64,000 bases of DNA. Source: Escherichia phage vB_EcoS-26175I. The translations under genes were made by a program, and so were the position numbers. Below the pieces are notes generated by a model. That model was not told where the DNA came from and did no database searches. It saw nothing but the letters and a program-made list of their open reading frames with translations. The stretch lies in sequence record NC_133255.1; one strand, 5' to 3'. How positions within the stretch are numbered: position 1 is the first letter of the stretch; each line of letters opens with the position of its first letter. Positions 13,333 through 56,817 of the stretch are shown in pieces.

Positions 13333-13339
13333 TAAAATT

Positions 13340-13415
13340 TGGACGACCGCATGAGATTCGAACTCACATAAGGAGGTTTTGCAGGCCTCCGCCTAAGCCA
13401 TTCAGCCAACGGTCG
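13340..13415 (-). tRNA. tRNA-Cys (anticodon GCA)
   Basis: T-arm atgag-attcgaa-ctcac; anticodon stem ggagg/cctcc; loop ctGCAaa. Confidence 0.65.
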
Positions 13416-13832: not shown

Positions 13833-13843
13833 TTTATGTAATA

Positions 13844-13872
13844 ATTATACAGAACTTTAAGGATTTAAGCAA
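13844..13872 (-). promoter_or_regulatory. sigma70-type early promoter
   Basis: attata 13844-13849, aagcaa 13867-13872. Confidence 0.5.
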
Positions 13873-14152: not shown

Positions 14153-14154
14153 AT

Positions 14155-14229
14155 TGGTGCACCCTGTTCGTATCGAACGAACCTCTCAAGCTCTTCAGGC
14201 AAGCGCTAATCCATCTCAGCTAAAGGTGC
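14155..14229 (-). tRNA. tRNA-Phe (anticodon GAA), weak anticodon stem
   Basis: T-arm gttcg-tatcgaa-cgaac; standard register gives loop ctGAAga; anticodon stem has two U-U mismatches. Confidence 0.5.
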
Positions 14230-14235
14230 AAATAT

Positions 14236-14312
14236 TGGCAAACCTACTAGGACTCGAACCTAGACCGTACGGTTTTGGAGACCGACATGCTGTCCAGTAA
14301 CACTCTAGGAAT
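14236..14312 (-). tRNA. tRNA-Trp (anticodon CCA)
   Basis: T-arm ctagg-actcgaa-cctag; loop ctCCAaa; acceptor has mismatches. Confidence 0.5.
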
Positions 14313-14320
14313 GCAGAAAT

Positions 14321-14397
14321 TGGCGTCCTGTGCGGGGATCGAACCCGCAAATCCTACCTTGAAAGGGTAGTGACTTTACCAGTTTGTCTAACAGGAC
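14321..14397 (-). tRNA. tRNA-Glu (anticodon TTC)
   Basis: perfect acceptor gtcctgt/acaggac, T-arm gcggg-gatcgaa-cccgc, anticodon stem ctacc/ggtag; loop ctTTCaa. Confidence 0.75.
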
Positions 14398-14404
14398 TTA
14401 AATT

Positions 14405-14486
14405 TGGTGGGGGATGGAGGACTCGAACCTCCGCGTGGTATACCCGGTCTACAGCCAGGCGCCGTCGCCACTGAGCCAATCCCCCC
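14405..14486 (-). tRNA. tRNA-Tyr (anticodon GTA)
   Basis: 79-nt body, perfect acceptor gggggat/atccccc, T-arm ggagg-actcgaa-cctcc; loop ctGTAga. Confidence 0.65.
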
Positions 14487-14676
14487 CTATTTGAATGAAA
14501 AGTAAGTCGGTTAAACTCAAGGTGGAATATTTCAGGATTTCCTGACTTTACCCCTAAAAGTCAACTCGCTTAATTACTTCTCATTCAGATATGTTTCCAA
14601 ATTAGATAACTATTATATCAAGTTTTATGGCACTGAGCAAGTCAAATTTTAAAGAACTTGCTCAGTGCTGTATTAG

Positions 14677-14952
14677 TTAGTCGAACTTAGGAGTGACAGT
14701 TAAGGAGAACGGAAGTTCAAAAACTTCTTCACCCTCATCACTAACAGTGATTACACGACCTTTAAGTTCAGACATTGAAATATCAATATCAGCTTTTGCA
14801 TCTGGAGCCATGCCAGCTTCAACACATTTAGCTTTAATTTCCGGCAGAAGTTCTACATCATAGAAATAAAGCCATTCAATCTCACCTTCCCAGCCTTCCC
14901 AGGATTTACAGATTGCACTTTCAATACCAGTTGTTATAACACGATTTTGCAT
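14677..14952 (-). CDS. hypothetical protein
   Basis: 91 aa ORF; promoter 14983-15012 upstream. Confidence 0.35.
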   Translation of the reverse strand: MQNRVITTGIESAICKSWEGWEGEIEWLYFYDVELLPEIKAKCVEAGMAPDAKADIDISMSELKGRVITVSDEGEEVFELPFSLTVTPKFD

Positions 14953-14982
14953 TCGTTAACTCCTTCATCAATTTATATAACT

Positions 14983-15012
14983 ATTATACCAGAAATTTAA
15001 AGCAAAAGGCAA
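14983..15012 (-). promoter_or_regulatory. sigma70-type early promoter
   Basis: conserved element upstream of 14677-14952. Confidence 0.5.
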
Positions 15013-15042
15013 GTACATTTTTAAAAATTCTGTTTGGAGGAG

Positions 15043-15249
15043 CTAAACTCCAGATTCTTCAGCCAGATCAAGCCCAACCAATGTGATTGCCATAATAGCC
15101 GCGCCATGTTCTTTCTCTCCTAGCTCTTTGGCTTGAGTGAGAATATTTAGGAACTGCTTGTGGAAATCTTCCACTTCTTCTGTCATGCCTGCTTCAGAAA
15201 TAATACCTTTCAGCATAAAGCGCTGTGCAGTAATTTCAGGATTAGCCAT
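15043..15249 (-). CDS. hypothetical protein
   Basis: 68 aa ORF. Confidence 0.3.
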   Translation of the reverse strand: MANPEITAQRFMLKGIISEAGMTEEVEDFHKQFLNILTQAKELGEKEHGAAIMAITLVGLDLAEESGV

Positions 15250-15400
15250 TTATTATCTCCAGTTATTTAGAATGTAAGCCAAACTTAGGATCATAGCGAT
15301 CATAAGTCGTACCATTAGTTGAAGTCTTGATGCTATGAAAACGACAGTACATAAATTTACGTAGTGCTTTCTTAATAGCTTTCATTTTATTTCCTTAATT

Positions 15401-15478
15401 TGGTAGGGGTGGTGGGATTCGAACCCACAAAACCTGAATTTTAAGTCCAGTACCTATGCCAATTCGATTACACCCCCA
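15401..15478 (-). tRNA. tRNA-Leu (anticodon TAA), short variable loop
   Basis: T-arm gtggg-attcgaa-cccac; loop ctTAAaa; type-I length is unusual for Leu. Confidence 0.5.
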
Positions 15479-15486
15479 TGTAATCT

Positions 15487-15834
15487 TTAGAGTTCGTAAC
15501 CCTGAATATATCGAGCAAAACCAGTAATCTCGAACTGAATTGCCCATGCTACTTCCATATGCTCAATCTTACTAAAATGAGCGTCAGACTGTTCTAGGAA
15601 ATAACGAGAGATTATAGGGAACTCAATGTCAAAATCTTCCTTATCCATACCATAGAAGAAGTTTCCAGAAATATTACGAACTTCACGAAAGAAATCCTCA
15701 ATCTGAAAATCCATCAGAGGATAAGTATATTCCTCTTTGCTATCATCCGTTTGGAAGAAGCGGAAATGCACAAGGCAAGAGCCAATCAGATTTACTGCTG
15801 GAGTAGTGTAAATATCCATGTTAACCTCGATCAA
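15487..15834 (-). CDS. hypothetical protein
   Basis: 115 aa ORF. Confidence 0.35.
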   Translation of the reverse strand: MIEVNMDIYTTPAVNLIGSCLVHFRFFQTDDSKEEYTYPLMDFQIEDFFREVRNISGNFFYGMDKEDFDIEFPIISRYFLEQSDAHFSKIEHMEVAWAIQFEITGFARYIQGYEL

Positions 15835-16006
15835 TATCTAGAGAAATTCCAAATTCTGGATTAATACCAGAACCATTACATGCTGCGCATTCCCACTCTT
15901 CAAAACGCATATCGCCAGGTTCAGCATCATTAATAGTACCTGTTCCATGGCAGTGAGTACACATGCACTCTTCTAGTTCTTGTTTAAGCTCTTGAAACTT
16001 AGACAT
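15821..16006 (-). CDS. small Cys-rich protein (two CxxC pairs)
   Basis: 61 aa; CTHCHGTG...CAACNGSG. Confidence 0.3.
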   Translation of the reverse strand: MSKFQELKQELEECMCTHCHGTGTINDAEPGDMRFEEWECAACNGSGINPEFGISLDIDRG

Positions 16007-16023
16007 ATAGTCTCCTAGTTAAT

Positions 16024-16102
16024 TGGTGGCTCCCGGAGGATTCGAACCTACCTACCTTTCGCTTATGAGGCGACGGCTCATACCAAATGAGCTTGAGAAC
16101 CA
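16024..16102 (-). tRNA. tRNA-Met (anticodon CAT)
   Basis: T-arm with attcgaa loop; D-arm gctc/gagc; loop ctCATaa. Confidence 0.55.
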
Positions 16103-16106
16103 AATT

Positions 16107-16196
16107 TGGAGGAAGAAGTGGGAATCGAACCCACAAGGCTATGTTTCAAACCGACAGATTAGCAATCTGCTGCAATACCGTTATGCTATTCTTCCT
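16107..16196 (-). tRNA. tRNA-Ser (anticodon GCT), long variable arm
   Basis: 87-nt body, perfect acceptor ggaagaa/ttcttcc, T-arm gtggg-aatcgaa-cccac; loop ttGCTaa. Confidence 0.7.
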
Positions 16197-16705
16197 TAAT
16201 TATTTCGGGCATATTCCCCATGAAGTTTCTCTCTCAGTTGAATTAGAGCTTCATTTGCTGCTTCAGGAGTACTGTGCAGCCCTGCGGAGTATGACTTACC
16301 TTTAAACATTATTCTATCCTGCCACTGACCAGATGCTTTGTGGTAGGATACTCCCTTAAATCCGCTAGTATTCCTAGAAGATTTACTAGCATTATGAGTA
16401 TTAGTGGTACTATCCGCTGCTCTTAAATTTAAAGGATGTATGTTTAACTTATTGCAGTCTTTATGATCAATCATTTCCGGCCTATACCCATAATATAGTA
16501 TAAATACTATGATATGAGCTAAGTAATCTTGGTGATCAACGTTAACTCTGATATACCCAGAGCTTTTGTGCAAAGATCCCGCAGGTTTATTGGCAAACTT
16601 AGTATTAAATATCTTCTCCTCTCTGGAGTTTCCGGAGAGCGGATTCCACACCAGTACACCATCTTCTAAACGGAATCTATAAAGTATAGACTCATAGTCT
16701 AGCAT
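16196..16705 (-). CDS. free-standing HNH homing endonuclease with AP2-like DNA-binding region
   Basis: 169 aa; IDHKDCNKLNIHPLNLRAA (HNH) followed by SGFKGVSYHKASGQWQ. Confidence 0.55.
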   Translation of the reverse strand: MLDYESILYRFRLEDGVLVWNPLSGNSREEKIFNTKFANKPAGSLHKSSGYIRVNVDHQDYLAHIIVFILYYGYRPEMIDHKDCNKLNIHPLNLRAADSTTNTHNASKSSRNTSGFKGVSYHKASGQWQDRIMFKGKSYSAGLHSTPEAANEALIQLREKLHGEYARNN

Positions 16706-16738
16706 AAATAGTTCCTAATCTTACAAATTTATGAATAT

Positions 16739-16767
16739 ATTATACAGAAAATTTCGGCATTAAGCAA
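16739..16767 (-). promoter_or_regulatory. sigma70-type early promoter
   Basis: attata 16739-16744, aagcaa 16762-16767. Confidence 0.55.
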
Positions 16768-16775
16768 GTGAAATT

Positions 16776-17072
16776 TTACTGAACATTGCACTGATATACC
16801 TGTTTGATACGTGTCACTGACTTCTTAGTTGGGTTGATAGAAGAACCCTGCCACCAACGTGATTCTGAGCTGAGAACAGCACCAGGAACAGCTTGTTCTT
16901 TTGGCAGAACAATATCAAAACACTGTTCACCCATATTATCTTTAATGTGCGACCAAATGTCTAGAGTAAATCGTTCTAGCTTATTACAAACTTGAACTTG
17001 ACAAAGTTCCTGTTGTGGAGCAGCAAATACAGAAGTAGATACTAGAGTCAATGCAAGTACAATGCGTTTCAT
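16776..17072 (-). CDS. secreted small protein (signal peptide)
   Basis: MKRIVLALTLVSTSVFAAPQ signal peptide; promoter 17103-17131. Confidence 0.35.
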   Translation of the reverse strand: MKRIVLALTLVSTSVFAAPQQELCQVQVCNKLERFTLDIWSHIKDNMGEQCFDIVLPKEQAVPGAVLSSESRWWQGSSINPTKKSVTRIKQVYQCNVQ

Positions 17073-17102
17073 ATTTGATTCCTCTCTCAAATTTATAAAT
17101 AT

Positions 17103-17131
17103 ATTATACAGAAATTTTCTATATTAAGCAA
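17103..17131 (-). promoter_or_regulatory. sigma70-type early promoter
   Basis: attata 17103-17108, aagcaa 17126-17131. Confidence 0.55.
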
Positions 17132-17139
17132 GTGAAAAT

Positions 17140-17170
17140 TTCTGTATAATAGCCCTCGCTTAGAGGGCTA
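17140..17170 (-). terminator. hairpin downstream of pnuC
   Basis: stem agccctc / gagggct, loop gctta. Confidence 0.4.
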
Positions 17171-17178
17171 TAGCTACT

Positions 17179-17871
17179 TTATTTGTTAACGCGTACAAAG
17201 TATCCTTTATAGGCTCCCATAATAGAGTTACCTAAGAATACTAGCCACATTGCTAGGATTGCATAAGATGCACCTGTAGATTGAGTAGTTACAAGCCAAA
17301 TGTACACAGTACCAATGTTAATAGCAATCCAGATCAGCCACTGCTCGGCATACTGCTTAACCATAAGCCACATAGCGATCACACTACCTACCGCAGTAAA
17401 TGCATCCAACATTGGGAATGGATCAGCCGTAGTAGCTAAGAAACTACCATACCCTAACGTGGCTACTGCTAGAATCCCTAGAGTCAGCAGAGCTTGGACT
17501 TTAGTCAGAATCTTAGTTGGAACATCTGGCAGATTACTTGGCTTATTTTTATGCCATAAGTACATTCCATAAAACTGCATAGGAACGTAGTATAGCAGGT
17601 TTAGTGCAGCGTTACCATAAAGATCTGCGTTTAAAGCTGTAATACCATAGGTAAGAACACCAACTAAGCCCCAAATATAGTTAGAAACACGTCCTTTAGC
17701 AACCAAAATAACACAAACTACGTTGGTTATCGCAGTAGCCCAATCTAGAGCTGTACCATTATAGTTTGCTAAACTAATAAAGGCGACTGCCATAAACAGC
17801 CACAGATATTCCAAAGGTTTCCAGTTTTTAAAGTCATTTACAAGATAGTTAGTCATATTAAAACTCTCCAA
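17179..17871 (-). CDS. pnuC: nicotinamide riboside transporter PnuC-like membrane protein
   Basis: 230 aa polytopic membrane protein, Trp-rich TM helices, immediately downstream of the NadR-like gene. Confidence 0.6.
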   Translation of the reverse strand: MESFNMTNYLVNDFKNWKPLEYLWLFMAVAFISLANYNGTALDWATAITNVVCVILVAKGRVSNYIWGLVGVLTYGITALNADLYGNAALNLLYYVPMQFYGMYLWHKNKPSNLPDVPTKILTKVQALLTLGILAVATLGYGSFLATTADPFPMLDAFTAVGSVIAMWLMVKQYAEQWLIWIAINIGTVYIWLVTTQSTGASYAILAMWLVFLGNSIMGAYKGYFVRVNK

Positions 17872-18913
17872 CGTTAAAGTGATGAATCAGCCAGTCTACT
17901 GCGTTTACTGCTTCGTCCATACGAACTTTGTAGTCCGGGGAGTCGATGTAAACAGTACGTCCTTCAGGGAACTGATTTGGAAATTCTTTCTTCATCTGCT
18001 CGAACAGTTCAGAAGTAATTGAACGATCGGAGTTAATACGTAAACCATCATCTACCCACTTGACAGTAGGCGCTAGAACAATTACTAAATCGTAATGTTC
18101 TTCTTTTGCAATTGCTGTAACCACAGGATTCTTACGATGTTCATAAAGTCTGTGGTAGAACTCAGTAATAAAAGCATTTGTATCCACAAACATGATCTTA
18201 TTTGCAGTACGTTCTGCTTCAAACTCTAGCTCTTTGTGTCTGAACGCAATTTTACTATAATCTTCGCTGGTAAGCAGATTTTCGTTACCAACTAGATCAA
18301 CTTCACAATACGTTCGACCATATTCTTCTACCCACGAAGTGTTGTATAGCTTCGCAAGGTATTTTGTTAAAGTAGTCTTTCCCGAGCTTTCAGTCCCAAT
18401 GAGTACAACCTTACGCACGTAATCTTTACGAACTACGCTAGGAAGAAACTCCCAATACTTCATAAGATCATTACGAATCATTGTAGCTGAGATTGGAACA
18501 CGAGTCCGATCAGAATCTACAATATAATGACCAAACTTCGGCAGATATTTCTTATATTCTGCATCATAGTCTAGTTCGCTAGAGAAAATGGTGATCTCAG
18601 GCAAATGTCCATAATTTTCATTAAGGATTCTAGCATATTCCGGCCAACCATTCGGATATTCAGGAATATCATCTTCAATAATGTACTCTACCGAAACGTG
18701 CTCAATATCCGCGTAAGTTTGTTCTAACCAACGAAGACGATTCTTTAACTGTAATACTTCCTGATCACGTGTGTTCTGCTTATCCAGCCAACGATTATCA
18801 TGACTAACTACAATAATAACTCGTTCACACATAGTTGCTGCTGTGTTTATTAGGTTAATATGACCACGCGTTAATGGTGCGAACTTACCAATTACTAGAC
18901 CAGTCTTAATCAT
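17858..18913 (-). CDS. nadR: NadR-like bifunctional NMN adenylyltransferase / ribosylnicotinamide kinase (no HTH domain)
   Basis: N-terminal nucleotidyltransferase motif GKFAPLTRGH; C-terminal Walker A GTESSGKTT; Met start at 18913 with SD and promoter 18944-18972. Confidence 0.75.
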   Translation of the reverse strand: MIKTGLVIGKFAPLTRGHINLINTAATMCERVIIVVSHDNRWLDKQNTRDQEVLQLKNRLRWLEQTYADIEHVSVEYIIEDDIPEYPNGWPEYARILNENYGHLPEITIFSSELDYDAEYKKYLPKFGHYIVDSDRTRVPISATMIRNDLMKYWEFLPSVVRKDYVRKVVLIGTESSGKTTLTKYLAKLYNTSWVEEYGRTYCEVDLVGNENLLTSEDYSKIAFRHKELEFEAERTANKIMFVDTNAFITEFYHRLYEHRKNPVVTAIAKEEHYDLVIVLAPTVKWVDDGLRINSDRSITSELFEQMKKEFPNQFPEGRTVYIDSPDYKVRMDEAVNAVDWLIHHFNVGEF

Positions 18914-18943
18914 GTTTGATTCCTCTCTCAAATTTATAAATAT

Positions 18944-18972
18944 ATTATACAGAGAATTTAGCATTCAAGCAA
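18944..18972 (-). promoter_or_regulatory. sigma70-type early promoter driving nadR-pnuC
   Basis: attata 18944-18949, aagcaa 18967-18972. Confidence 0.55.
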
Positions 18973-19110
18973 TCGAATTTTTAAACTTTTTAGTGGAAAA
19001 ATCTCAAGGCATTTAGTGGTAGCACGTTGTTGCTGCAATAATAGTATATGATTCTAAAGAATTAAATACTAAAGACCTTAGTTGAATAACTTATGGGATT
19101 TTCTTTTACC

Positions 19111-19152
19111 TTAAATACAGAAAAGCCCGCGCTCTCGGAGGAAACGCGGGCT
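19111..19152 (-). terminator. rho-independent terminator downstream of SPFH gene
   Basis: stem agcccgcg / cgcgggct followed on minus strand by tttctgtattt. Confidence 0.55.
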
Positions 19153-19176
19153 TGTTTCGAAGATTACGTGGAACTA

Positions 19177-20121
19177 TTACTTATTACGCATATCCATAAT
19201 CATTTGACCATCGTAGCCAGTACCGACAACAGTCTGCGGTACACCACCTTGGTATTTTTCAGCACGAAGCATTTCAACTTCCAGCTGCTTCCAACGAATC
19301 ATTTCAGGAGTAATGGTACGTTGCAGAGCGGCGTTAGCTTCAGCTTCTTTCTTAGCTGCGTACAGTTTAGCATCTGCGTCACGTTCGTTAGCTACTGCCA
19401 TGTTTTCACGAGCGGAACGATCTGCCTCAGCTTGCTTAACTTTCTGCTGTGCTTCTTGTTCAACACGAGCCAGTTCAGCTTTTGCAGCGTTAACTTGTTC
19501 TTCACGAACTTTAGTGTTCTGTACCTGTTCCATGATTACCGGTGGCAGAGTAATATCCTGAAGGAATACTTGCTTAACCGTGTAACCATAAGGACGCGCG
19601 TACTCTTCTACCTCTTGCTGAATAGCAGTTTGCAGTTGAGCCTGAATCTTAGCGTCGAACAGATCTTGTGCTTTTGGTACGGACTTACCAAACTCACGAA
19701 TCGTAGACAGCATCTTCTCTTCAACGTATTTGTTCAGAGCCTGATCCTGAGTACCTGCGTTAACACGGTTCATAGGAGCTTTAGCACCATCAAACTGCAA
19801 CATAACGGTAATGTCAACAGTAGACTTAAACTTATCCTGGCTAGGAACCTGAAGTTTATCCAGTTTCATGGAAATATCTTTCGTACTAAAAGTATCAAAA
19901 GAAGCAAATGGGTTAACAATATGGAAGCCTGGCAATACAGGATTAGGGCTAACTTTACCCAGGAAGGTTTGAGTCTTAACAGTACCATCCTGAACAACTG
20001 TATAGGAATTGAGAGCCAGAATAAGAGCACCAAGACCAACAGCAGCACCAACACCCCAACGTTTAATAGTACGAATTACTTTTTGCTCAGAAGTCAGTTC
20101 TTTAGTGTTTTTAGTAAACAT
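19177..20121 (-). CDS. SPFH/band-7 (prohibitin/HflC-like) membrane protein
   Basis: N-terminal TM, SPFH-like core, C-terminal Ala/Glu/Gln-rich coiled coil; terminator hairpin 19111-19152 downstream. Confidence 0.65.
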   Translation of the reverse strand: MFTKNTKELTSEQKVIRTIKRWGVGAAVGLGALILALNSYTVVQDGTVKTQTFLGKVSPNPVLPGFHIVNPFASFDTFSTKDISMKLDKLQVPSQDKFKSTVDITVMLQFDGAKAPMNRVNAGTQDQALNKYVEEKMLSTIREFGKSVPKAQDLFDAKIQAQLQTAIQQEVEEYARPYGYTVKQVFLQDITLPPVIMEQVQNTKVREEQVNAAKAELARVEQEAQQKVKQAEADRSARENMAVANERDADAKLYAAKKEAEANAALQRTITPEMIRWKQLEVEMLRAEKYQGGVPQTVVGTGYDGQMIMDMRNK

Positions 20122-20132
20122 ATATTTCCTTA

Positions 20133-20333
20133 TTATTTAGAAGAGTTATCTACTACAGTTACTTTAGTTGCAGAAATAAATAGGCTAGCATCCACAGCAA
20201 ATTCAGGAGCTTTGATATCTCCATTATGAAATATGACTATACCGGAGACTACTTCAAATGCTAGTGCTGTAACATCGGTGGTCTTTAGTTGTGAATGTTC
20301 ACCTACTACTTTTACTATATATCGTGTTTTCAC
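20133..20333 (-). CDS. hypothetical protein
   Basis: 66 aa ORF. Confidence 0.3.
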   Translation of the reverse strand: MKTRYIVKVVGEHSQLKTTDVTALAFEVVSGIVIFHNGDIKAPEFAVDASLFISATKVTVVDNSSK

Positions 20334-20359
20334 TTTATTTTCCTAGCAGTTAATAAAAT

Positions 20360-20434
20360 TGGCCGAGGTGACAGGATTCGAACCTGCATAAAGGAATTTA
20401 GAAGACTCCTGCCTATCCCTTAGACTACACCCCG
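20360..20434 (-). tRNA. tRNA-Arg (anticodon TCT)
   Basis: T-arm acagg-attcgaa-cctgc; anticodon stem ggaat/actcc (one GU); loop ctTCTaa. Confidence 0.65.
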
Positions 20435-20442
20435 AGAATAAA

Positions 20443-20952
20443 TTACTTAATGATTTCGTTCAGTTTGGTTTGGCTTTCTAGCGCTGCTTTAGCTGATTTC
20501 TCAGCATCCCTAGCAGCACGTCGTGCTTTAGAGTCAATCAATAGCTTGTCATACTTGATATTAACGAACTCTTTAATATCATGGTAGAAACGTTGATGTG
20601 CCATGTATTCTTGTGCATCTGCATCGTAACAGCGCATATAGAAGTAATCACTAGGCTCTCCACGAAGTGTACGCTCTAGAATCTGAGGTCGATAACGACG
20701 TAATGTATCTTTCGCCATTTTTATTTCATCAGTTTCTTCACCAAGCTGAACTAGGTGATAAAGACGAGTATTGTCGATGTAATCCAAAGCTACGCTAAAG
20801 TATTCACCTTCTCGAAGATTGTATCCTGTAATCTCACTCATTTTCTCACGAGCTTGATCAAGTGTCAGGCGTTCTGGAAAATGTGCTATATGCAGAATAC
20901 GAGGGCAACACATTTCTTGATGATCAAAGATACAAGTTGTTCCTAGATTCAT
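20443..20952 (-). CDS. hypothetical protein
   Basis: 169 aa ORF downstream of the 1-kb ORF-poor region. Confidence 0.4.
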   Translation of the reverse strand: MNLGTTCIFDHQEMCCPRILHIAHFPERLTLDQAREKMSEITGYNLREGEYFSVALDYIDNTRLYHLVQLGEETDEIKMAKDTLRRYRPQILERTLRGEPSDYFYMRCYDADAQEYMAHQRFYHDIKEFVNIKYDKLLIDSKARRAARDAEKSAKAALESQTKLNEIIK

Positions 20953-21921
20953 ATTGATTCCTTTTGTTAGGTATTTTTAAGAACTCTCGTAAAAGTCCTT
21001 AAAGATACCCGGCGGTAGGTAGGGTCAGCCCCCTCAGATTAAGCTCTGCAGCCCTTCCGTCAGACAATATCTTCCAGTTTAAGTCAGGGTGACTTTGTGG
21101 TTATTCAGCTAAGGCTGATCGGCAGCTCTTAGGTCATGACTCCTCGTCGCTCTTTACTCACCGGCTAGGAAGTTATCTCGAGTTCTTCCTAGCTCTTTAG
21201 TCGTGCCATTAAGGTGCCTTCTAAGAGACTTACCTTTTCCCACTTTCGATTTGGGCATGTATCAGGTAAGGGTAGCCAAATCAGCATCCTAGTCCTACGG
21301 GGTCTCATCAAATTACATACCACCGCTTTTCGATATGTAATGCCCATGTCTATACGGGAGAAGAAAATGGGCATCTTTCTCTTCGTCTGATAGCTTGAAA
21401 AACGACTCCTCATGGAGGAAAAACTTCACTATCTAGGCTAAAGCCTAAAGTTCTTCTTTAATCCGGCAAAGCAAAACCGTAGTATATACTTTTCAGGAAT
21501 GGTTGGTTAGTCTGGAACCAACTACCGCGTGGTTTTGGCAGTGCACAGCTGCCTGCGATTGCTTCGCCATTAGAAGCACCAGTTATCCAACTCTTTCCGA
21601 CCGTGGGACTCGAACCCACATCTTCAGGCGGTGAAGCCCTAATAATACCTATTATACTAGGACGGCAGTGTTGTTACATAAGTGGTTTCGGCACCCCACT
21701 AACATAAACTAGAGAAGAGTTTACGAGATTTCGGGACAGCTCCCGAGTTTTCCGCAGATTTTCAGTTCCCTATCAATAGCAATAAGCGTTAGCTCGTAGC
21801 CTCTCTCAGAGTACTTACTAGTCTCCAACTCACCGACTCTATTCAGTGGAATAGCTATCCTAGTAGGAGTCACTAAACTCACTCAGCGTAATCGGCTCGC
21901 TGTTCTCTAATTTATGAATCT

Positions 21922-49915: not shown

Positions 49916-49948
49916 TTAAACCTAAGGGGAGGGGGCTATGCTCCTTCC
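49916..49948 (+). terminator. rho-independent terminator
   Basis: aaggggagg...ccttcccct followed by ttttt. Confidence 0.6.
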
Positions 49949-49988
49949 CCTTTTTGCATTTAGAAGGCACGAAAGCGTGCAAAGGAGA

Positions 49989-51461
49989 ATGACCTTGTTT
50001 AACGTGCAAGCTGTAGTGTTGAAGATGCTTCTCGCTTCTGAACAGAAGCAAATAGCATTGGAAACATTCTCAAAACTGCATAAAGATCATTTTAATGACG
50101 CTTTCTCCTCAATTTACCAAGCCGTCCAGAATTATTATAAGAAATATAACGCAATGCCGTCCATTGACGCACTGATGCTTGAGGCCAATAGGAACGCCCG
50201 CCTTTCTCAAGCTCTTGTCGTCTTAGCTAACACTCAAATTCCAGAAGTGAGCATGGAACAGGCACTTGAAGTCCTAGAAGCCGAATATACACAGGATCTA
50301 TTCCTGAAACTTCTAGAAACAGACGTGCTTCAAGATTTAACAATGCTGGATCAGGGAGAAATTCTCAACCGAGTTGCCTCCCTTCACTTAAAATTAGAAG
50401 AGAAAGTAACGAATACTGGAAAGGTATTCAACGCAGACACAATGCGTATTTTCCAGAGAGAAGAAGATACCAAACTGAACTTGATCGCTCTTGGTATTTG
50501 TAATGAGTTCGACGCTCAAATTGGTTTAGCTCGCACAGAAACGTTACTGCTTGGTGGTTGGCGTGGTACTGGTAAATCCATTATCTGTTCAAACATACAG
50601 GTTCAGCAATATTTGAATGGAGACATTGCTCCATATTTCTCAATTGAGATGAAAGAGCACGAAGTGTTTAGACGTAATCTGGCTATGTTAGCTGGAGTAT
50701 CTGCATTAGCAATGCGTAATAACACTCTTGAAGGTGCTGCTCTGTTGAGATTAGCCAGAACTAGGGCTAGAATGTTTAATGGTGGTGAAGAGCTTTTCGA
50801 TAACTTCGTTAAGCAGTACACTATGGCTAAAATGAGTGACTTCTATGATATGGAAAGTAAACTCATTGAAGGCTATGAGCTTCACACTCCTATGATCATC
50901 GTTTACGACCCTGAACTGTCTATTACGACGGTTGACGTAGAATTAAATAAACTAGTTGCTAAGTATGGTGATAAGGTTACTGTAGCTCTTCTAGACTACA
51001 TTAACCAAACAAGACTTCCAGATTCAAAGACCATTGACATGTATGACTGGAAAGAACAGATGGTTGTTAGTTCATCTTTCAAATCTATCTGCCAGAAACA
51101 TAACGTGGCTGGTGTTGCCCCTTACCAGATTGACCAAGATGGTAGAACGCGTATGTCTAAAGGGATTCTTGATTCCGCAGATATGGCTGCTAATCTTAAT
51201 GCTGCAAAAGCTGATAACGGTCAAGGTGCTATTATGTTTGACTTCGTTAAGACTCGTTCCTCTGATAGTGTGAAGTTTATGCCTAAGATGAACTGGGAAA
51301 CTCTGCGAATGGATAATACTACCAACCTAGCAATGGAAGATATTGCGCAAATGGAAGCTGAGTTCGTTATTCCTATTGAAAAGGATAAACCAGCTCAACC
51401 TAAACGTGCTAAGAAAGACAAAGCTGAAAATTCAACAGGTGAACAGGCCAGCGATATATGA
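49989..51461 (+). CDS. DnaB-like replicative helicase
   Basis: Walker A GGWRGTGKS; start at ATG 49989 after SD AAAGGAGA. Confidence 0.6.
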   Translation: MTLFNVQAVVLKMLLASEQKQIALETFSKLHKDHFNDAFSSIYQAVQNYYKKYNAMPSIDALMLEANRNARLSQALVVLANTQIPEVSMEQALEVLEAEYTQDLFLKLLETDVLQDLTMLDQGEILNRVASLHLKLEEKVTNTGKVFNADTMRIFQREEDTKLNLIALGICNEFDAQIGLARTETLLLGGWRGTGKSIICSNIQVQQYLNGDIAPYFSIEMKEHEVFRRNLAMLAGVSALAMRNNTLEGAALLRLARTRARMFNGGEELFDNFVKQYTMAKMSDFYDMESKLIEGYELHTPMIIVYDPELSITTVDVELNKLVAKYGDKVTVALLDYINQTRLPDSKTIDMYDWKEQMVVSSSFKSICQKHNVAGVAPYQIDQDGRTRMSKGILDSADMAANLNAAKADNGQGAIMFDFVKTRSSDSVKFMPKMNWETLRMDNTTNLAMEDIAQMEAEFVIPIEKDKPAQPKRAKKDKAENSTGEQASDI

Positions 51462-52348
51462 GTAGAATAACAGAACTACTTGATCTGAAAGGCATTGAAT
51501 ACAAAGACACAGGTGGGGACATCCTCATCTGTTGTCTCAATCCAGATCATGATGATAGACACCCAAGCTTGCGTATTGATCCTGCATCAGGTATTATGCA
51601 TTGCTTGAGCTGTGGCTTCGGTAGAGGAATACCGAGCATTTACCATTATTTTAATGAGACTCAGTACAGACAGTCCCCAAGATTGTCACAAGTACGTAAA
51701 AAGATTTCAGAGATTAGGAATGGATCTACGAATCTTGCAATTCCTGAATCTGCTTACCTTTTCGAAGGTGATTTCCGAGGTATCAGTTCTAAGACCTTGA
51801 AGAAATATTTTGCTTTCCAACATCAAGCAGACTGGGAAGGCAGAATTGTATTCCCAATAACAGATGCTGTTGGACGCAATATCCTATTCCTGGGACGTTC
51901 TATAAACAGTTCTGCCCCTCCTAAATACTTAGTAAAACCAAAACAAGTTTCACCACCGATTTTCCCTGTACGATATAATACACCAGTTCTTGTTCTAGTT
52001 GAAGGTATCTTTGATATGTTAAATCTAGAAGATAACGGTGTGGATTATGCTTCTTGCTGCTTTGGTACACATCAGTTTACATCTGATAACATTGCTGATA
52101 AGTTCAGTTCTTACATTATTGCTGGAGTAAGAGTAGTTGTTATCTTGCTAGATAACGATGCCTCTGGTAATAAAGCTGCCCAAGCACTAGCGAAGCTAAT
52201 TCGTACAAAAACACGTTTAACACCTGTAGTTGGTAACTTCCTTCTTCCAGAAGGCAAAGACCCAGGTGATTTAAATAAAGAAGAGATCGATATGTTGGCT
52301 CAACGTATTGAAATTTTAGTTGCCGAATCGCTCAAAGATTTGGTATAA
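51458..52348 (+). CDS. DnaG-like DNA primase
   Basis: N-terminal zinc-binding CCLNPDHDDRHPS...HCLSCG, TOPRIM-like VLVEGIFDMLNL. Confidence 0.65.
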   Translation: MSRITELLDLKGIEYKDTGGDILICCLNPDHDDRHPSLRIDPASGIMHCLSCGFGRGIPSIYHYFNETQYRQSPRLSQVRKKISEIRNGSTNLAIPESAYLFEGDFRGISSKTLKKYFAFQHQADWEGRIVFPITDAVGRNILFLGRSINSSAPPKYLVKPKQVSPPIFPVRYNTPVLVLVEGIFDMLNLEDNGVDYASCCFGTHQFTSDNIADKFSSYIIAGVRVVVILLDNDASGNKAAQALAKLIRTKTRLTPVVGNFLLPEGKDPGDLNKEEIDMLAQRIEILVAESLKDLV

Positions 52349-52349
52349 T
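52321..52349 (+). promoter_or_regulatory. putative promoter with extended -10 upstream of DNA polymerase
   Basis: tggtataat 52341-52349; weak -35. Confidence 0.35.
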
Positions 52350-52410
52350 ATATTGGTAAGTTAGAGAAGAAACACTGAAGTTATACTTACTTACCAAAAG
52401 GAGACTAAAT

Positions 52411-54978
52411 TTGAAAATTGCAGTAGTTGATAAAGCTCTAAATAACACTCGTTATGATAAACACTTCCAGCTTTATGGTGAGGAAGTTGATGTATTCCAT
52501 ATGTGTAACGAGAAGTTATCTGGCCGTTTGCTGAAAAAACATATTACAATCGGAACTCCAGATAACCCGTTCGATCCGAACGATTACGATTTTGTTGTAC
52601 TAGTTGGTGCTGAACCTTTCCTGTATTTCGCAGGTAAGAAAGGTATCGGTGATTATACTGGTAAACGTGTAGAGCATGGCGGCTATGCCAATTGGATTGC
52701 AAGCATTAGTCCAGCTCAGTTACACTTTAAACCTGAAATGAAACCAGTTTTCGATGCAACTGTAGAAAGTATTCACGATATTATTAATGGTCGTGAGAAG
52801 ATTGCAAAAGCTGGTGATTATCGTCCTATTACTGATCCAGATGAAGCTGAAGAATATATCAAGATGGTGTATAACATGGTTATCGGACCTATCGCATTCG
52901 ACTCCGAAACCTCAGCTTTGTACGCTCGTGATGGTTATCTGCTTGGTGTTTCTATGTCTCACCAAGAGTATCAGGGTGTTTATATTGACTCTGATAGCAT
53001 CACCGAAGTAGCTGTACATTATCTCCAGAAAATTCTGGATAGCAAGAATCATCAGATCGTTTTTCATAACTTGAAGTTCGATATGCACTTTTATTCCTAT
53101 CATCTAGGACTTTCCTTCGAGAAAGCACATAAAGAGCGTAGACTTCATGATACCATGTTGCAACACTATGTTCTCGATGAACGTCGTGGTACTCACGGCT
53201 TGAAATCTCTGGCTATGAAGTATACGGACATGGGCGATTATGACTTTGAACTGGATAAGTTCAAGGATGATTATTGCAAGGCACATAAGATCAAAAAAGA
53301 GGATTTCAGCTATGATCTGATTCCTTTTGATATTATGTGGCCATATGCTGCAAAAGATACCGATGCTACTCTGCGTCTGCATAACTTCTTCTTACCAAAA
53401 ATTGAGAAGAACGAAAAGCTTTGCAGTCTATACTACGAAGTTCTGATGCCTGGTTGTGTATTCCTGCAACGTGTTGAAGATCGTGGTGTACCAATTTCTG
53501 TTGATCGCTTAAAAGAAGCTCAGTATCAATTAACTCACAATCTGAATAAGGCTCGTGAGAAGCTGTATACTTATCCAGAAGTCGTTCAGCTAGAGAAAGA
53601 TCAGAACGAAGCGTTTAATCCGAACTCTGTTAAGCAACTCCGTGTTCTTCTGTTTGATTATGTTGGTTTAACTCCAACTGGTAAATTGACGGATACAGGT
53701 GCAGATTCTACAAACGCAGAAGCTCTGAACGAACTGGCTACTCAGCACCCGATTGCTAAAACTCTGCTAGAGATTCGTAAGCTGACTAAGCTGATCTCTA
53801 CTTATGTTGAAAAGATTCTTCTGAGCATCGATGCAGATGGTTGTATTCGTACCGGTTTCCACGAACATATGACTACTTCTGGTCGTCTGAGTTCTTCTGG
53901 TAAGCTGAACCTACAACAGTTACCACGTGATGAATCTATTATCAAGGGTTGTGTAGTAGCTCCTCCTGGATATCGTGTAATTGCATGGGACTTAACAACT
54001 GCGGAAGTTTACTATGCTGCTGTTCTGTCTGGTGACAGAAATATGCAACAAGTATTTATCAACATGAAGAATGAGCCTGATAAATACCCTGACTTCCACT
54101 CAAACATCGCCCACATGGTATTTAAACTGACTTGTGAACCACGTGATGTTAAGAAGCTGTTCCCAGCTCTGCGTCAGGCTGCTAAGGCAATTACCTTCGG
54201 TATTCTGTATGGTTCTGGCCCAGCGAAAGTAGCTCATTCTGTTAACGAAGCTCTTCTGGAACAGGCTGCTAAGACAGGCGAACCGTTTGTTGAATGTACC
54301 GTTGCAGATGCGAAGGACTATATCGAAACTTACTTCGGTCAGTTCCCTCAGCTTAAGCGTTGGATTGATAAGTGCCACGATCAGATCAAGAACTTTGGGT
54401 TCATCTATAGTCACTTTGGTCGTAAGCGTCGTCTGCACAACATCCATTCCGAAGATCGTGGTGTTCAGGGTGAAGAAATCCGTTCTGGATTTAACGCAAT
54501 CATTCAGTCTGCATCTTCTGATAGCCTGTTGTTAGGTGCTATTGATGCTGATGAAGAAATCCTGTCCCTGGGTCTAGGAAAAGAGATGAAGATCGTCATG
54601 TTGGTTCACGACTCCGTGGTTGCTATTGTACGTGAAGATCTGATTGATCAGTATAACGAGATTCTGATTCGTAACATCCAGAAGGATCGTGGTATTAGTA
54701 TCCCTGGCTGCCCAATCGGTATTGATTCTGATTCTGAGAAAGGTGGTTCTCGTGACTACTCTTGTGGTAAGATGAAGAAACAGCACCCATCAATCGCTTG
54801 TATTGATGATGATGAATATACTCGTTATGTTAAGGGTGTATTACTCGATGCAGATTTCGAGTATAAGAAGTTAGCTGCAATGGATAAAGAGCATCCAGAC
54901 CACAGCAAGTACAAGGATGATAAGTTTATTGCTGTATGTAAAGATCTGGATAATGTGAAAAGGATTTTAGGTGCTTGA
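52411..54978 (+). CDS. DNA polymerase, family A, with 3'-5' exonuclease domain
   Basis: 855 aa; exo motif FDSETSALY; Pol I-type palm motifs; apparent TTG start at 52411 after SD AAGGAGA. Confidence 0.9.
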   Translation: MKIAVVDKALNNTRYDKHFQLYGEEVDVFHMCNEKLSGRLLKKHITIGTPDNPFDPNDYDFVVLVGAEPFLYFAGKKGIGDYTGKRVEHGGYANWIASISPAQLHFKPEMKPVFDATVESIHDIINGREKIAKAGDYRPITDPDEAEEYIKMVYNMVIGPIAFDSETSALYARDGYLLGVSMSHQEYQGVYIDSDSITEVAVHYLQKILDSKNHQIVFHNLKFDMHFYSYHLGLSFEKAHKERRLHDTMLQHYVLDERRGTHGLKSLAMKYTDMGDYDFELDKFKDDYCKAHKIKKEDFSYDLIPFDIMWPYAAKDTDATLRLHNFFLPKIEKNEKLCSLYYEVLMPGCVFLQRVEDRGVPISVDRLKEAQYQLTHNLNKAREKLYTYPEVVQLEKDQNEAFNPNSVKQLRVLLFDYVGLTPTGKLTDTGADSTNAEALNELATQHPIAKTLLEIRKLTKLISTYVEKILLSIDADGCIRTGFHEHMTTSGRLSSSGKLNLQQLPRDESIIKGCVVAPPGYRVIAWDLTTAEVYYAAVLSGDRNMQQVFINMKNEPDKYPDFHSNIAHMVFKLTCEPRDVKKLFPALRQAAKAITFGILYGSGPAKVAHSVNEALLEQAAKTGEPFVECTVADAKDYIETYFGQFPQLKRWIDKCHDQIKNFGFIYSHFGRKRRLHNIHSEDRGVQGEEIRSGFNAIIQSASSDSLLLGAIDADEEILSLGLGKEMKIVMLVHDSVVAIVREDLIDQYNEILIRNIQKDRGISIPGCPIGIDSDSEKGGSRDYSCGKMKKQHPSIACIDDDEYTRYVKGVLLDADFEYKKLAAMDKEHPDHSKYKDDKFIAVCKDLDNVKRILGA

Positions 54979-55468
54979 TTTCAAATTGCCCGTATATGCT
55001 TTACGGGCATTTGTATCAATTGAGCAGGAAGGTGATTATTCCGTAATTACAACAAGATATAATAAATATGTGCTAGATAACAGGGAGTTGCCTGGCACAT
55101 TCTCTCAACGTAGGTTAGCCTTATTTGAGAAGCGGAAAGAATTACCTTATAAGCTCTACCCTATTCGTGGTAGAATATCAATGTTGTCCCAATTAGTTGG
55201 GTCAAAGCGTAGCCAGTTCATAGATTCTGATGGAAATCTAATTAACTGGAAGAAAACTACGTTCTATGATGTTATCACGTCTAAAGTTCTGCATTCTGCA
55301 AGAATTTATAATGGAAAGTATCAATGCTATGTGGCTAAAGTCCCGTATCCATTCGTGCTATCCTATGTTCCAGCTTATATAAGCTATATTCTGGTAAATA
55401 ATAGCCCTGTTATTTATCAAGTCCATCAAGAGGAGCCTGAAATTCCTAGACTTAGAATAAAATTATGA
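54971..55468 (+). CDS. hypothetical protein
   Basis: 165 aa ORF. Confidence 0.35.
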   Translation: MLDFKLPVYALRAFVSIEQEGDYSVITTRYNKYVLDNRELPGTFSQRRLALFEKRKELPYKLYPIRGRISMLSQLVGSKRSQFIDSDGNLINWKKTTFYDVITSKVLHSARIYNGKYQCYVAKVPYPFVLSYVPAYISYILVNNSPVIYQVHQEEPEIPRLRIKL

Positions 55469-56817
55469 AGGTTGTTATATCTAATAAAGCCTATTTCAAG
55501 CCCGATGATGAACTCTGGGATTACTGTAGTAAGCAAACCACTTATCACATCGAGACAATGACTAGTAAATACCCTATTATGTATAAGAATAGTGGTGTTG
55601 TTGCTAAAGAGATTAAGTGGATTCCCATTACGCGTCTGGATTTGCTAGATGCTAAGGGAGTAAAATACGAATTAGTTGATAAACGCACGTTAGCTCCGGT
55701 AAAAATACCAGAACCTCAGTTCAAGCTGCGTGAAGAAGATCAACTCCCTATATATGAAGAGTGTGATGATACTTGTATTATCAATGGTAAGCCCGGATTT
55801 GGTAAAACTATCCTAGCTTTAGCTCTTGCATATAAGTTTGGCCAGAAAACTCTGGTAATCTGCACCAACACATCCATACGGGAAATGTGGGCTGCAGAAG
55901 TTCGTAAATGGTTTGGATTCGAGCCTGGTATTATAGGTTCTGGAAAGTATAATATTGATCCACCAATCGTGGTCAGTAATATACAAACAGTGAACAAACA
56001 TGCGAATAATCTTTCTAAGGTGTTCGGTACTGTTATAGTTGATGAAGTTCACCACTGTGTGGCTACAACTTTCACTAATTTCTTAGAGATCTCGTGTGCT
56101 CGCTACAAGATTGGTTTATCGGGTACGTTAAAACGTAAAGATGGCCTACAAGTTATGTTCAAAGATTTCTTTGGATATAAGATCTTTAGTCCGCCTGTCA
56201 ATAACACTGTTCCACCCACAATCCATAGGTACTCCGTACCTGTCGAGTTATCAGGAAACCAGAACGTACCGTGGGCACTACGTGCTAATGATGTATATAA
56301 TCATCCTGAATATCGGGAAACTATTATAAACCTAGCACATTTATATGTGTCTATGGGGCATAAGGTTCTCTTTGTAAGTGATAGGACGGAACTAATCCAA
56401 ACAATATTAGAAGCTCTCGCACAACGTGGTGTTACAACCTATGAGATTATAGGTGCAACTCCTTTGGATGATCGATTGAGAATCCAGAAAGATGTAGCAG
56501 AGGGCGGTCCATGTGTACTTGCAGCAGCTCAGAGTATCTTCTCAGAAGGTATTTCTCTTAACGAGCTGTCTTGTTTAATAATGGGAAGTCTCATTAATAA
56601 TGAATCTCTCATAGAACAGCTAGCAGGTCGCGTTCAACGTATTGTTGACGGAAAACTAGATCCGATTGTTGTAGATTTAATTATGAAAGGAGGTACTGGT
56701 TTAAGACAGGCTTCTGGACGTATGGCTGTATATCGCAATAATGCATGGAAAACTATTACTATGACTCCGGAGAAAGCAGTACAATTAGCTAAAATTGCAT
56801 TTGGCAACTGCTCATAA
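55465..56817 (+). CDS. SF2 DNA helicase
   Basis: Walker A GKPGFGKT, Walker B/DEAH-like VDEVHH. Confidence 0.7.
   Translation: MKVVISNKAYFKPDDELWDYCSKQTTYHIETMTSKYPIMYKNSGVVAKEIKWIPITRLDLLDAKGVKYELVDKRTLAPVKIPEPQFKLREEDQLPIYEECDDTCIINGKPGFGKTILALALAYKFGQKTLVICTNTSIREMWAAEVRKWFGFEPGIIGSGKYNIDPPIVVSNIQTVNKHANNLSKVFGTVIVDEVHHCVATTFTNFLEISCARYKIGLSGTLKRKDGLQVMFKDFFGYKIFSPPVNNTVPPTIHRYSVPVELSGNQNVPWALRANDVYNHPEYRETIINLAHLYVSMGHKVLFVSDRTELIQTILEALAQRGVTTYEIIGATPLDDRLRIQKDVAEGGPCVLAAAQSIFSEGISLNELSCLIMGSLINNESLIEQLAGRVQRIVDGKLDPIVVDLIMKGGTGLRQASGRMAVYRNNAWKTITMTPEKAVQLAKIAFGNCS

What the first reader, a model, noticed from the sequence alone, without database searches (positions are those of the whole stretch)
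52411..54978. DNA polymerase appears to start at a TTG codon
The only in-frame start downstream of the strong RBS AAGGAGA (52398-52404) that gives the full 855-aa family A polymerase is TTG at 52411. Non-ATG initiation on the key replication enzyme may tune expression.
Basis: seen in the sequence. Interest (0 to 1): 0.2.

Follow-up and report, generated by a model that had tools for sequence, protein, structure and literature searches.

The report
T5-type DNA polymerase starts at TTG
The phage's DNA polymerase gene really does begin at a TTG codon rather than ATG, but this is already annotated for phage T5 and shared by all its close relatives, so it is an ordinary, known feature.

Summary
The window is a T5-like phage (Epseptimavirus, 100% identical to MK907268 over the 501-nt query). 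In detail: ORF 52411-54978 (855 aa, family A polymerase with 3'-5' exonuclease) opens with TTG, 6 nt after AAGGAGA, with no other ATG/GTG/TTG back to the in-frame stop.

Comparative evidence supports TTG as the real start:
- Codons 2-30 evolve as coding sequence (variable sites 2/0/13 by codon position).
- The MKIAVVDK N-terminus is conserved in 14 Demerecviridae lineages, and 11 of them have ATG at the homologous position.
- The Shine-Dalgarno site is the best for any NTG in the gene region (-8.7 versus -3.9 kcal/mol for the internal ATG 52501).
- 439 natural GenBank relatives carry a Leu codon there; none has ATG or GTG.

T5 RefSeq already annotates this TTG start. The 1989 829-aa call came from a one-base sequencing error, and about 11% of sampled modern records still miscall the start at Met31.

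That TTG "tunes" expression is plausible: UUG initiates less well than AUG, and TTG arose a second time in Providencia phage PR1. It remains untested.

Verdict: real, correctly read, already known, low interest.

The parts
52320..52349 (+). Sigma-70-type early promoter for pol (TTGCCG, 18 nt, TATAAT with TG extension), lying in the 3' end of the primase gene. Predicted transcription start is about 52356.
   Evidence: Consensus scan, 10 of 12 matches. T5 RefSeq annotates a promoter at the homologous place, record 70987-71061. A second copy precedes the same leader in phage Lindwurm.
52353..52397 (+). Conserved 5'-leader stem-loop (UUGGUAAGU...ACUUACCAA) ending directly before the Shine-Dalgarno site. 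Its role was not tested; mRNA stabilisation or regulation are possibilities.
   Evidence: MFE fold (energy not exceptional, z -0.28). The consensus structure is kept in 7 lineages, with 4 pairs showing two-sided changes. Only 5 of 66 leader positions vary among 29 distinct sequences. No Rfam match.
52398..52404 (+). Shine-Dalgarno sequence AAGGAGA, 6 nt upstream of the start codon.
   Evidence: Sequence. Duplex with the 16S 3' end is -8.7 kcal/mol, the best of the sites upstream of 151 NTG triplets in the ORF region. AGGAG(A) at similar spacing in most of the relatives examined, weaker (AAGGA/AGGAA) in three Vibrio phages.
52411..52413 (+). TTG initiation codon of the DNA polymerase, decoded as fMet by initiator tRNA.
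   Evidence: First ATG/GTG/TTG after the in-frame stop. TTG in T5 RefSeq. TTG in all 29 distinct IMG/VR relatives. Leu codon in 439 natural GenBank records, ATG or GTG in none. ATG at the homologous site in 11 other lineages.
52411..52500 (+). The first 30 codons (MKIAVVDKALNNTRYDKHFQLYGEEVDVFH), the stretch in dispute between the TTG and the Met31 start.
   Evidence: Variable sites by codon position 2/0/13; 13 synonymous-only codons versus 2 with amino-acid changes, the same pattern as codons 31-140; the other two frames are full of stops. The motif is conserved down to Vibrio phages at about 40% identity.
52411..54978 (+). DNA polymerase gene, 855 aa plus stop. It has a lineage-specific N-terminal region (1-136), a 3'-5' exonuclease (137-331 = 52819-53403), a family A polymerase domain (368-760 = 53512-54690) and a C-terminal extension.
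   Evidence: Homologue of T5.122.
52490..52492 (+). Out-of-frame ATG used as the start in the 1989 T5 record M24354 (829 aa). Rejected.
   Evidence: The M24354 CDS starts 79 nt after the TTG. That record has one extra A at position 165 relative to the T5 genome, which joins the two frames.
52501..52503 (+). In-frame ATG (Met31) used as the start by some automatic annotations (825 aa). Rejected as the main start.
   Evidence: MK907268 annotates from here. SD energy is only -3.9 kcal/mol with a 12-nt gap. Met31 is replaced by Leu in 4 of the 5 marine/Vibrio-type lineages.
54971..55468 (+). Next gene (165 aa, GTG start), overlapping the last 8 nt of pol. Homologue of T5.123 and probably translationally coupled.
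   Evidence: T5.123 is annotated with the same overlap and GTG.

Best explanation
The window carries the DNA polymerase gene of a T5-like phage. Translation starts at UUG 52411, and the ribosome is placed there by the strong Shine-Dalgarno AAGGAGA 6 nt upstream. Initiator fMet-tRNA reads UUG with a first-position mismatch, so the protein begins Met-Lys-Ile-Ala-Val-Val-Asp-Lys and is 855 residues long. The gene has its own sigma-70 early promoter inside the end of the primase gene and a conserved leader of about 55 nt. Because UUG is a poorer start codon than AUG, the strong SD plus weak start codon should give less polymerase per mRNA than ATG would. Whether that reduction is selected or merely tolerated is not shown. 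Shown here: the anatomy, the coding nature of codons 2-30, homology of the start position across the family, and invariance of TTG in the T5/Epseptimavirus clade. Inferred: fMet at the N-terminus and lower translation efficiency.
For: Anatomy.
SD: the best SD in the gene region is at the TTG (-8.7 versus -3.9 kcal/mol at Met31).
Coding signature: codons 2-30 vary 2/0/13 by codon position, with 13 synonymous-only codons against 2 non-synonymous, matching codons 31-140.
Window versus T5: 6 differences in codons 2-30, all third-position and synonymous.
Reach of homology: tblastn alignments reach residue 1-2 in Klebsiella, Pectobacterium, Proteus and Vibrio phages. The [KR][IV]A[VLI][VI]DK motif follows the start codon in 14 lineages.
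Start codon elsewhere: 11 of those lineages have ATG exactly there.
Census: 412 + 27 natural GenBank records have a Leu codon at codon 1. None has ATG or GTG, and the single ATG record is a back-translated sequence.
Existing annotation: T5 RefSeq T5.122 is annotated as 855 aa from the same TTG, and PR1 RefSeq also uses TTG.
Numbering in the literature: D164A/E166A in PMC8284885 fits the 855-aa form.
Profile coverage: phrog_17 aligns from residue 1.
General knowledge: UUG starts give Met at the N-terminus, and AUG/GUG/UUG initiate at 10-100% of AUG (10.1101/063800).
Against: No protein-level evidence could be obtained. No open paper in the library maps the N-terminus, and no solved structure of the T5 enzyme exists. 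From my memory of the abstract of Andraos et al. 2004 (JBC 279:50609), which I could not read here, an enzyme lacking the first 30 residues keeps about half of its activity, so those residues are not essential for catalysis. The structure prediction was too poor to show whether residues 1-30 belong to a folded domain. For the tuning part, most sister genera use ATG on the same enzyme, and TTG invariance within a shallow clade is a single site.
Confidence: 0.92

Rival explanations
1. The real start is the in-frame ATG at 52501 (Met31), giving an 825-aa enzyme, and the TTG/RBS upstream is coincidental. This is how the 100%-identical record MK907268 and some other records are annotated.
For: MK907268 annotates the CDS from this ATG. 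In a spread sample, 5 of 46 annotated close relatives have no feature over the first 30 codons. ATG is the commonest start in this phage, at 103 of 115 T5 CDSs. From memory, unverified here: the 30-residue N-terminal deletion enzyme is active (Andraos et al. 2004).
Against: The SD is weak and badly spaced (-3.9 kcal/mol, 12-nt gap). Codons 2-30 show a clear coding substitution pattern and amino-acid conservation across 14 lineages. ATG sits at the homologous upstream position in 11 lineages. Met31 is Leu in 4 of the 5 marine/Vibrio-type lineages.
Confidence: 0.03
2. Both starts are used: a major 855-aa form from TTG and a minor 825-aa form from Met31, giving two isoforms that differ in the N-terminal region.
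For: Met31 is conserved in all enterobacterial lineages. A weak GAGGA lies upstream of it. E. coli cdsA, with TTG plus an internal Met37, is a reported case of multiple initiation codons (PMC11448367, abstract seen).
Against: The SD for Met31 is poor. Met31 is not conserved in 4 of the 5 marine/Vibrio-type lineages. No evidence for a second product was found in the accessible literature.
Confidence: 0.08
3. TTG is the true start but has no adaptive role. A neutral or slightly deleterious ATG-to-TTG change was fixed in the ancestor of the T5/Epseptimavirus clade, was buffered by the strong SD and strong early transcription, and has simply not reverted.
For: Eleven of the 14 sampled lineages, including the close relative Eos, use ATG on the same enzyme. 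TTG use in T5 (3 of 115 CDSs) is at the usual bacterial background of about 3-4% (10.1101/063800). The whole leader is nearly invariant in this clade (5 of 66 sites vary), so invariance of one more base carries little information.
Against: No reversion among 439 natural records, although a single T-to-A change would restore ATG. TTG appears a second time, apparently independently, in Providencia phage PR1: TTG taxa are monophyletic in 0 of 200 bootstraps. My rough estimate of that happening by chance is about 0.04 at a 2.6% background; it is post hoc and not corrected for phylogeny.
Confidence: 0.45
4. The gene starts at the out-of-frame ATG 52490 and encodes 829 aa, as in the original 1989 T5 sequence.
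For: GenBank M24354 annotates a putative RBS and CDS this way. The SD energy there is moderate, -6.4 kcal/mol.
Against: M24354 differs from the T5 genome by one extra A in an A-run, which artificially joins the frames. In the window, that frame holds an ORF of fewer than 40 aa (not listed).
Confidence: 0.005

Closest known systems
Bacteriophage T5 DNA polymerase gene (pol, T5.122; RefSeq NC_005859 71097..73664, YP_006950.1)
   Same: Same gene, same 855-aa length and same TTG start. The RBS (GAGGAGA versus AAGGAGA), spacing, leader and promoter position also match. The first 140 residues are 96% identical.
   Different: The window phage is an Epseptimavirus rather than Tequintavirus T5. There are two base differences in the 66-nt leader and synonymous differences in the coding part. 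The window also lacks the hegJ homing endonuclease gene upstream.
E. coli genes with UUG starts and an internal Met that confuses annotation, for example cdsA (PMC11448367)
   Same: A TTG start is preceded by an SD, and a downstream in-frame ATG was originally or automatically taken as the start.
   Different: For cdsA the start usage was tested genetically. For this polymerase no protein-level test was accessible here.
Start-codon-based translational control such as infC (AUU start sensed by IF3)
   Same: A non-AUG start on a central gene lowers initiation and makes it sensitive to IF3 discrimination (general knowledge; 10.1101/063800 discussion).
   Different: infC autoregulation depends on its product being IF3. 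Nothing links the polymerase to start-codon discrimination. UUG is a canonical start and is much less discriminated against than AUU.
Phage T4/RB69 gene 43 translational operator (the DNA polymerase represses its own mRNA by binding a hairpin next to the SD)
   Same: The layout is similar: a conserved stem-loop ends directly 5' of the polymerase gene's SD. The comparison with T4 rests on my own knowledge.
   Different: The polymerases belong to different families (B in T4, A here), and there is no sequence similarity. The hairpin here is longer and sits at the predicted 5' end of the transcript. Binding or autoregulation has never been shown and was not testable here.

Membership tests
Family A (Pol I-like) DNA polymerase, T5 type | DNA_pol_A catalytic domain | tested here: met
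   PF00476 at residues 368-760, E 4.7e-65, 220 bits against a cutoff of 34. Klenow fragment is matched at E 2e-49.
Family A (Pol I-like) DNA polymerase, T5 type | 3'-5' proofreading exonuclease domain with the Exo I acidic residues | tested here: met
   PF01612 at residues 137-331, E 1e-37. The F-D-S-E-T motif with D164/E166 aligns to the Klenow Exo I motif. The same residues are mutated in PMC8284885.
Family A (Pol I-like) DNA polymerase, T5 type | No 5'-3' exonuclease domain; lineage-specific N-terminal (about 130 aa) and C-terminal extensions instead | tested here: met
   Residues 1-136 and 761-855 match no Pfam family. The N-terminal 140 aa match only phrog_17 and Demerecviridae polymerases. 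A separate flap endonuclease gene (D15) is annotated in T5.
Family A (Pol I-like) DNA polymerase, T5 type | Orthology and synteny with T5 pol (helicase D6, primase, pol, T5.123, D10 helicase) | tested here: met
   Window ORFs of 507, 296, 855, 165 and 450 aa lie in the same order as T5.119.121.122.123 and .124. Identity to an Epseptimavirus record is 100% over the 501-nt query.
Genuine UUG-initiated gene | In-frame UUG with an SD at 5-9 nt and no better start upstream in the ORF | tested here: met
   AAGGAGA, 6-nt spacer, -8.7 kcal/mol, best of the sites upstream of 151 NTG triplets; stop at 52357 with no start codon between.
Genuine UUG-initiated gene | Sequence between the UUG and the first AUG is under protein-coding constraint | tested here: met
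   Variable sites by codon position are 2/0/13, with 13 synonymous-only against 2 non-synonymous codons. Amino-acid conservation holds across 14 lineages.
Genuine UUG-initiated gene | Orthologues start at the homologous position | tested here: met
   ATG at the homologous position in 11 lineages and TTG in PR1 at the same SD spacing. Depositors annotate those starts.
Genuine UUG-initiated gene | Protein N-terminus or initiating ribosome mapped to the UUG | not testable with these tools
   No N-terminal sequencing, proteomics or ribosome-profiling data for T5-like polymerase were found in the accessible literature. The key JBC paper is not held.
Start-codon tuning or autoregulation (infC-like or T4 gp43-like) | Expression changes when the start codon is changed, or the product binds its own leader | not testable with these tools
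   Only indirect hints exist: recurrence of TTG in two lineages, and a conserved leader hairpin with weak covariation and no Rfam family.

The most novel reading that the evidence does not exclude
The weak TTG start, the strong SD and the conserved stem-loop that abuts the SD could together form a translational control module that sets polymerase dosage. TTG would be actively maintained, having arisen twice in the family, and the leader hairpin could serve as an operator, for instance for autogenous repression by the polymerase as in T4 gene 43, or for timing of synthesis during infection. Nothing found here excludes this, and nothing tests it directly.
Probability: 0.08. Interest if true: 0.45.

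Novelty: already known. Interest (0 to 1): 0.1.

Why it matters
Scientifically it matters little. A UUG start on the T5 polymerase is already in the curated T5 record, and UUG starts occur in about 3% of bacterial and T5 genes.

The practical value is for annotation. About one in nine sampled GenBank records of T5-like phages, including the record identical to this window, truncate the polymerase by 30 residues by starting at Met31. The 1989 reference entry carries a frameshift error. The comparative evidence assembled here gives a clear rule for correcting these records.

If the start codon were shown to be selected for dosage control, it would be a modest example of start-codon tuning of a replication enzyme.

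Tried and rejected
1. The key biochemical paper (Andraos, Tabor, Richardson 2004, JBC 279:50609) could not be read by DOI or PubMed id. What I say about its 30-residue deletion comes from memory and is marked as such.

2. Literature searches for TTG, an initiation codon or N-terminal sequencing of T5 polymerase gave nothing relevant.

3. The search for homologous proteins with the N-terminal region returned only 4 short fragments, which was useless for an alignment or for a survey of called lengths. Residues 1-140 were later confirmed against the window.

4. The AlphaFold2 single-sequence model of residues 1-340 had a mean pLDDT of 35 and is uninformative. No fold search was attempted.

5. Rfam search of the leader found no family. 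The leader fold energy is not better than shuffles (z -0.28), so I do not claim a structured RNA element beyond conservation.

6. I first read the Providencia PR1 start as lying 3 codons upstream of the homologous site. Comparison with Eos and Slocum showed that the TTG sits at the same SD spacing and is followed by a 9-nt insertion.

7. The single 'ATG' record among close relatives (OP745094) was rejected as natural evidence because its codons look back-translated.

8. I considered and rejected the 829-aa (1989) and 825-aa (Met31) starts; see the rival explanations.
Full report
**What the window is.** A 501-nt stretch around the finding is 100% identical to Escherichia phage vB_EcoS-26175II (MK907268; Demerecviridae, Markadamsvirinae, Epseptimavirus). 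It matches 543 phage records, mostly Salmonella, Escherichia and Klebsiella T5-like phages. Gene order matches phage T5: D6-type helicase (49938-51461), primase (51458-52348), polymerase (52411-54978), a 165-aa gene (54971-55468) and the D10 helicase (55465-56817).

**Check of the observation.**
- The coordinates are exact: AAGGAGA at 52398-52404, spacer CTAAAT, TTG at 52411-52413.
- The ORF 52411..54978 is 855 aa.
- In the same frame there is a stop at 52357-52359 and no ATG, GTG or TTG before 52411.
- The next in-frame candidates are ATG at codon 31 (52501), TTG at codon 40 and ATG at codon 110.
- The protein is a family A polymerase with a 3'-5' exonuclease domain at residues 137-331 and a polymerase domain at 368-760. 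Klenow fragment is its best solved relative and there is no solved T5 enzyme.
- Residues 1-136 match no Pfam family but are covered from residue 1 by phrog_17.

**Is TTG the real start?** Five independent lines say yes.

1. *Ribosome binding.* The SD:anti-SD duplex upstream of the TTG is -8.7 kcal/mol with a 6-nt gap, the strongest for any of the 151 NTG triplets in the ORF region. Met31 has -3.9 kcal/mol with a 12-nt gap.
2. *Coding signature.* Among 29 distinct sequences of the T5/Epseptimavirus clade, variable sites in codons 2-30 fall 2/0/13 on codon positions 1/2/3. Thirteen codons vary only synonymously and two change the amino acid. This is the same pattern as the undisputed codons 31-140 (10/4/69; 61 versus 13). 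The two other frames of 52411-52500 are full of stops. All six differences between the window and T5 in this stretch are third-position and synonymous.
3. *Deep conservation.* tblastn alignments with the first 140 residues reach residue 1 or 2 in Klebsiella (77%), Pectobacterium (74%), Proteus (58%) and Vibrio (37-39%) phages. In an alignment of 14 lineages, the motif [KR][IV]A[VLI][VI]DK directly follows the start codon.
4. *Homologous starts.* ATG occupies exactly that position in Sugarlandvirus, two Pectobacterium-type lineages (Hongcheonvirus and L065), Novosibvirus, phage Eos, Serratia phage Slocum, four Vibrio-phage genera and a metagenomic lineage. Depositors annotate those starts. Met31 is replaced by Leu in four of the five marine/Vibrio-type lineages.
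5. *Curated practice.* T5 RefSeq annotates pol (T5.122) as 855 aa from the same TTG behind GAGGAGA. The exonuclease mutations D164A/E166A used in PMC8284885 fit the 855-aa numbering.

**Census of the start codon.** I ran tblastn with the first 30 residues three times, with Leu, Met or Val as the first residue.

| First residue of query | Records at 30/30 | Records at 29/30 | Records at 28/30 |
|---|---|---|---|
| Leu | 412 | 28 | 0 |
| Met | 1 | 412 | 27 |
| Val | 0 | 413 | 27 |

The bands reconcile exactly: 439 natural records have a Leu codon at codon 1, and none has ATG or GTG. The single Met record, OP745094, is a 2565-bp entry whose codons look back-translated, so it is not natural evidence. 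Every sequence I could read directly has TTG.

**History and annotation errors.** The original 1989 T5 entry (M24354) annotates an 829-aa product that starts 79 nt after the TTG, which is out of frame with it. Aligned to the T5 genome, that entry has one extra A in an A-run at position 165. The extra base closes the TTG frame and fuses the ATG-52490 frame to the true one. Modern automatic annotation makes a different error. MK907268, identical to the window, starts the gene at Met31. In a spread sample, 5 of 46 annotated close relatives have no feature over the first 30 codons.

**How it most likely works.**
- A sigma-70-type promoter (TTGCCG, 18 nt, TG-TATAAT; 52320-52349) lies in the end of the primase gene, where T5 RefSeq also annotates a promoter. 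This gives a leader of about 55 nt.
- The 30S subunit is positioned by the SD, and initiator fMet-tRNA pairs with UUG. Methionine at the N-terminus of UUG-initiated proteins and the 10-100% range of AUG/GUG/UUG efficiency are reported in 10.1101/063800.
- In T5, 103 of 115 annotated CDSs examined start with ATG, 9 with GTG and 3 with TTG (pol, the holin T5.041 and hegH). TTG is therefore rare but at the usual background level.
- The expected consequence of TTG is fewer initiations per mRNA than with ATG, partly offset by the strong SD. This step is inferred, not shown.

**Is the TTG selected?** The evidence is suggestive only.
- A neighbour-joining tree of the N-terminal 140 residues places the T5 group inside a clade with five ATG lineages that excludes Providencia phage PR1 in 200 of 200 bootstraps. 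The TTG taxa are never monophyletic.
- PR1 also starts with TTG at the same SD spacing, followed by a 9-nt insertion. TTG therefore seems to have arisen twice among about 13 lineages.
- My rough chance estimate at a 2.6% background is about 0.04. It is post hoc and ignores phylogenetic non-independence.
- Against selection, most lineages use ATG, and the whole leader is nearly invariant in this clade (5 of 66 sites vary). An invariant start-codon base therefore adds little.

**Side structure.** The leader folds into a stem-loop (52353-52397) that ends at the SD.
- Its energy is not exceptional (z -0.28), and Rfam has no match.
- The pairing is kept in seven lineages, with four pairs showing two-sided changes.
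- In phage Lindwurm, a 109-aa ORF is inserted between primase and pol, yet the unit of promoter, leader, SD and TTG is preserved intact behind it.
- With the predicted start at about 52356, the hairpin would sit at the very 5' end of the transcript. From general knowledge, such hairpins can stabilise mRNA. A regulatory operator role, as in T4 gene 43, is not excluded and was not tested.

**Comparison with what is known, and verdict.** This is the T5 polymerase gene in an Epseptimavirus genome, and all tested membership criteria are met. The TTG start is the curated state for T5, so the finding is correct but already known. Its main use is as a correction rule for the minority of records that truncate the protein at Met31.

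**What failed.** The large protein search returned only fragments. The single-sequence structure model was unusable.

Noticed in passing
window 52353-52397 (+): A conserved stem-loop in the pol leader ends directly at the Shine-Dalgarno site. It is kept in 7 lineages with a few two-sided changes. It has no Rfam family and its energy is not exceptional. The predicted transcription start places it at the 5' end of the mRNA.
   Followed up: partly
L080 (Escherichia phage Lindwurm) 426-755; also hits H26, H28, H31, H34 and H44: Some T5-like phages carry an insertion of about 390 bp with a 109-aa ORF of unknown function between primase and pol. It is flanked by two copies of the promoter -10 region, and the leader, SD and TTG are intact downstream.
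   Followed up: partly
window 51458-51461 (junction of the helicase and primase ORFs): The window lacks the HNH homing endonuclease gene hegJ that T5 carries between the D6 helicase and the primase. Here the two genes overlap directly by 4 nt.
   Followed up: no
window 54971-55468 (+): The gene after pol starts with GTG and overlaps the end of pol by 8 nt, as does T5.123 in T5. This suggests translational coupling, and it is a second non-ATG start in the same operon.
   Followed up: no
window 6463-21667 (-): A cluster of 31 predicted tRNA genes. Three have a CAT anticodon; the one at 11627-11704, next to tRNA-Pro, corresponds by position to the tRNA that T5 RefSeq labels initiator tRNA-fMet. 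One prediction, labelled tRNA-SeC with anticodon TCA at 21594-21667, could be an opal-reading tRNA or a tRNA-like RNA.
   Followed up: no
L079 (GenBank M24354) position 165; L078 (GenBank OP745094): Two public records are misleading. The 1989 T5 polymerase entry has an extra A that shifts the frame and yields a wrong 829-aa product. OP745094 is deposited as a phage gene but has back-translated-looking codons and an artificial ATG.
   Followed up: yes
L001 (MK907268) 1752; hits H137, H141, H150, H168 and H172: About 11% of sampled annotated T5-like genomes, including the one identical to this window, leave the first 30 codons of pol unannotated, starting the gene at Met31.
   Followed up: partly
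L073 (Providencia phage PR1) 593-604: PR1 polymerase also starts with TTG and has a 9-nt insertion (Ser-Ser-Leu) right after the start codon. On the tree it lies outside the clade that contains the T5 group and five ATG lineages.
   Followed up: partly
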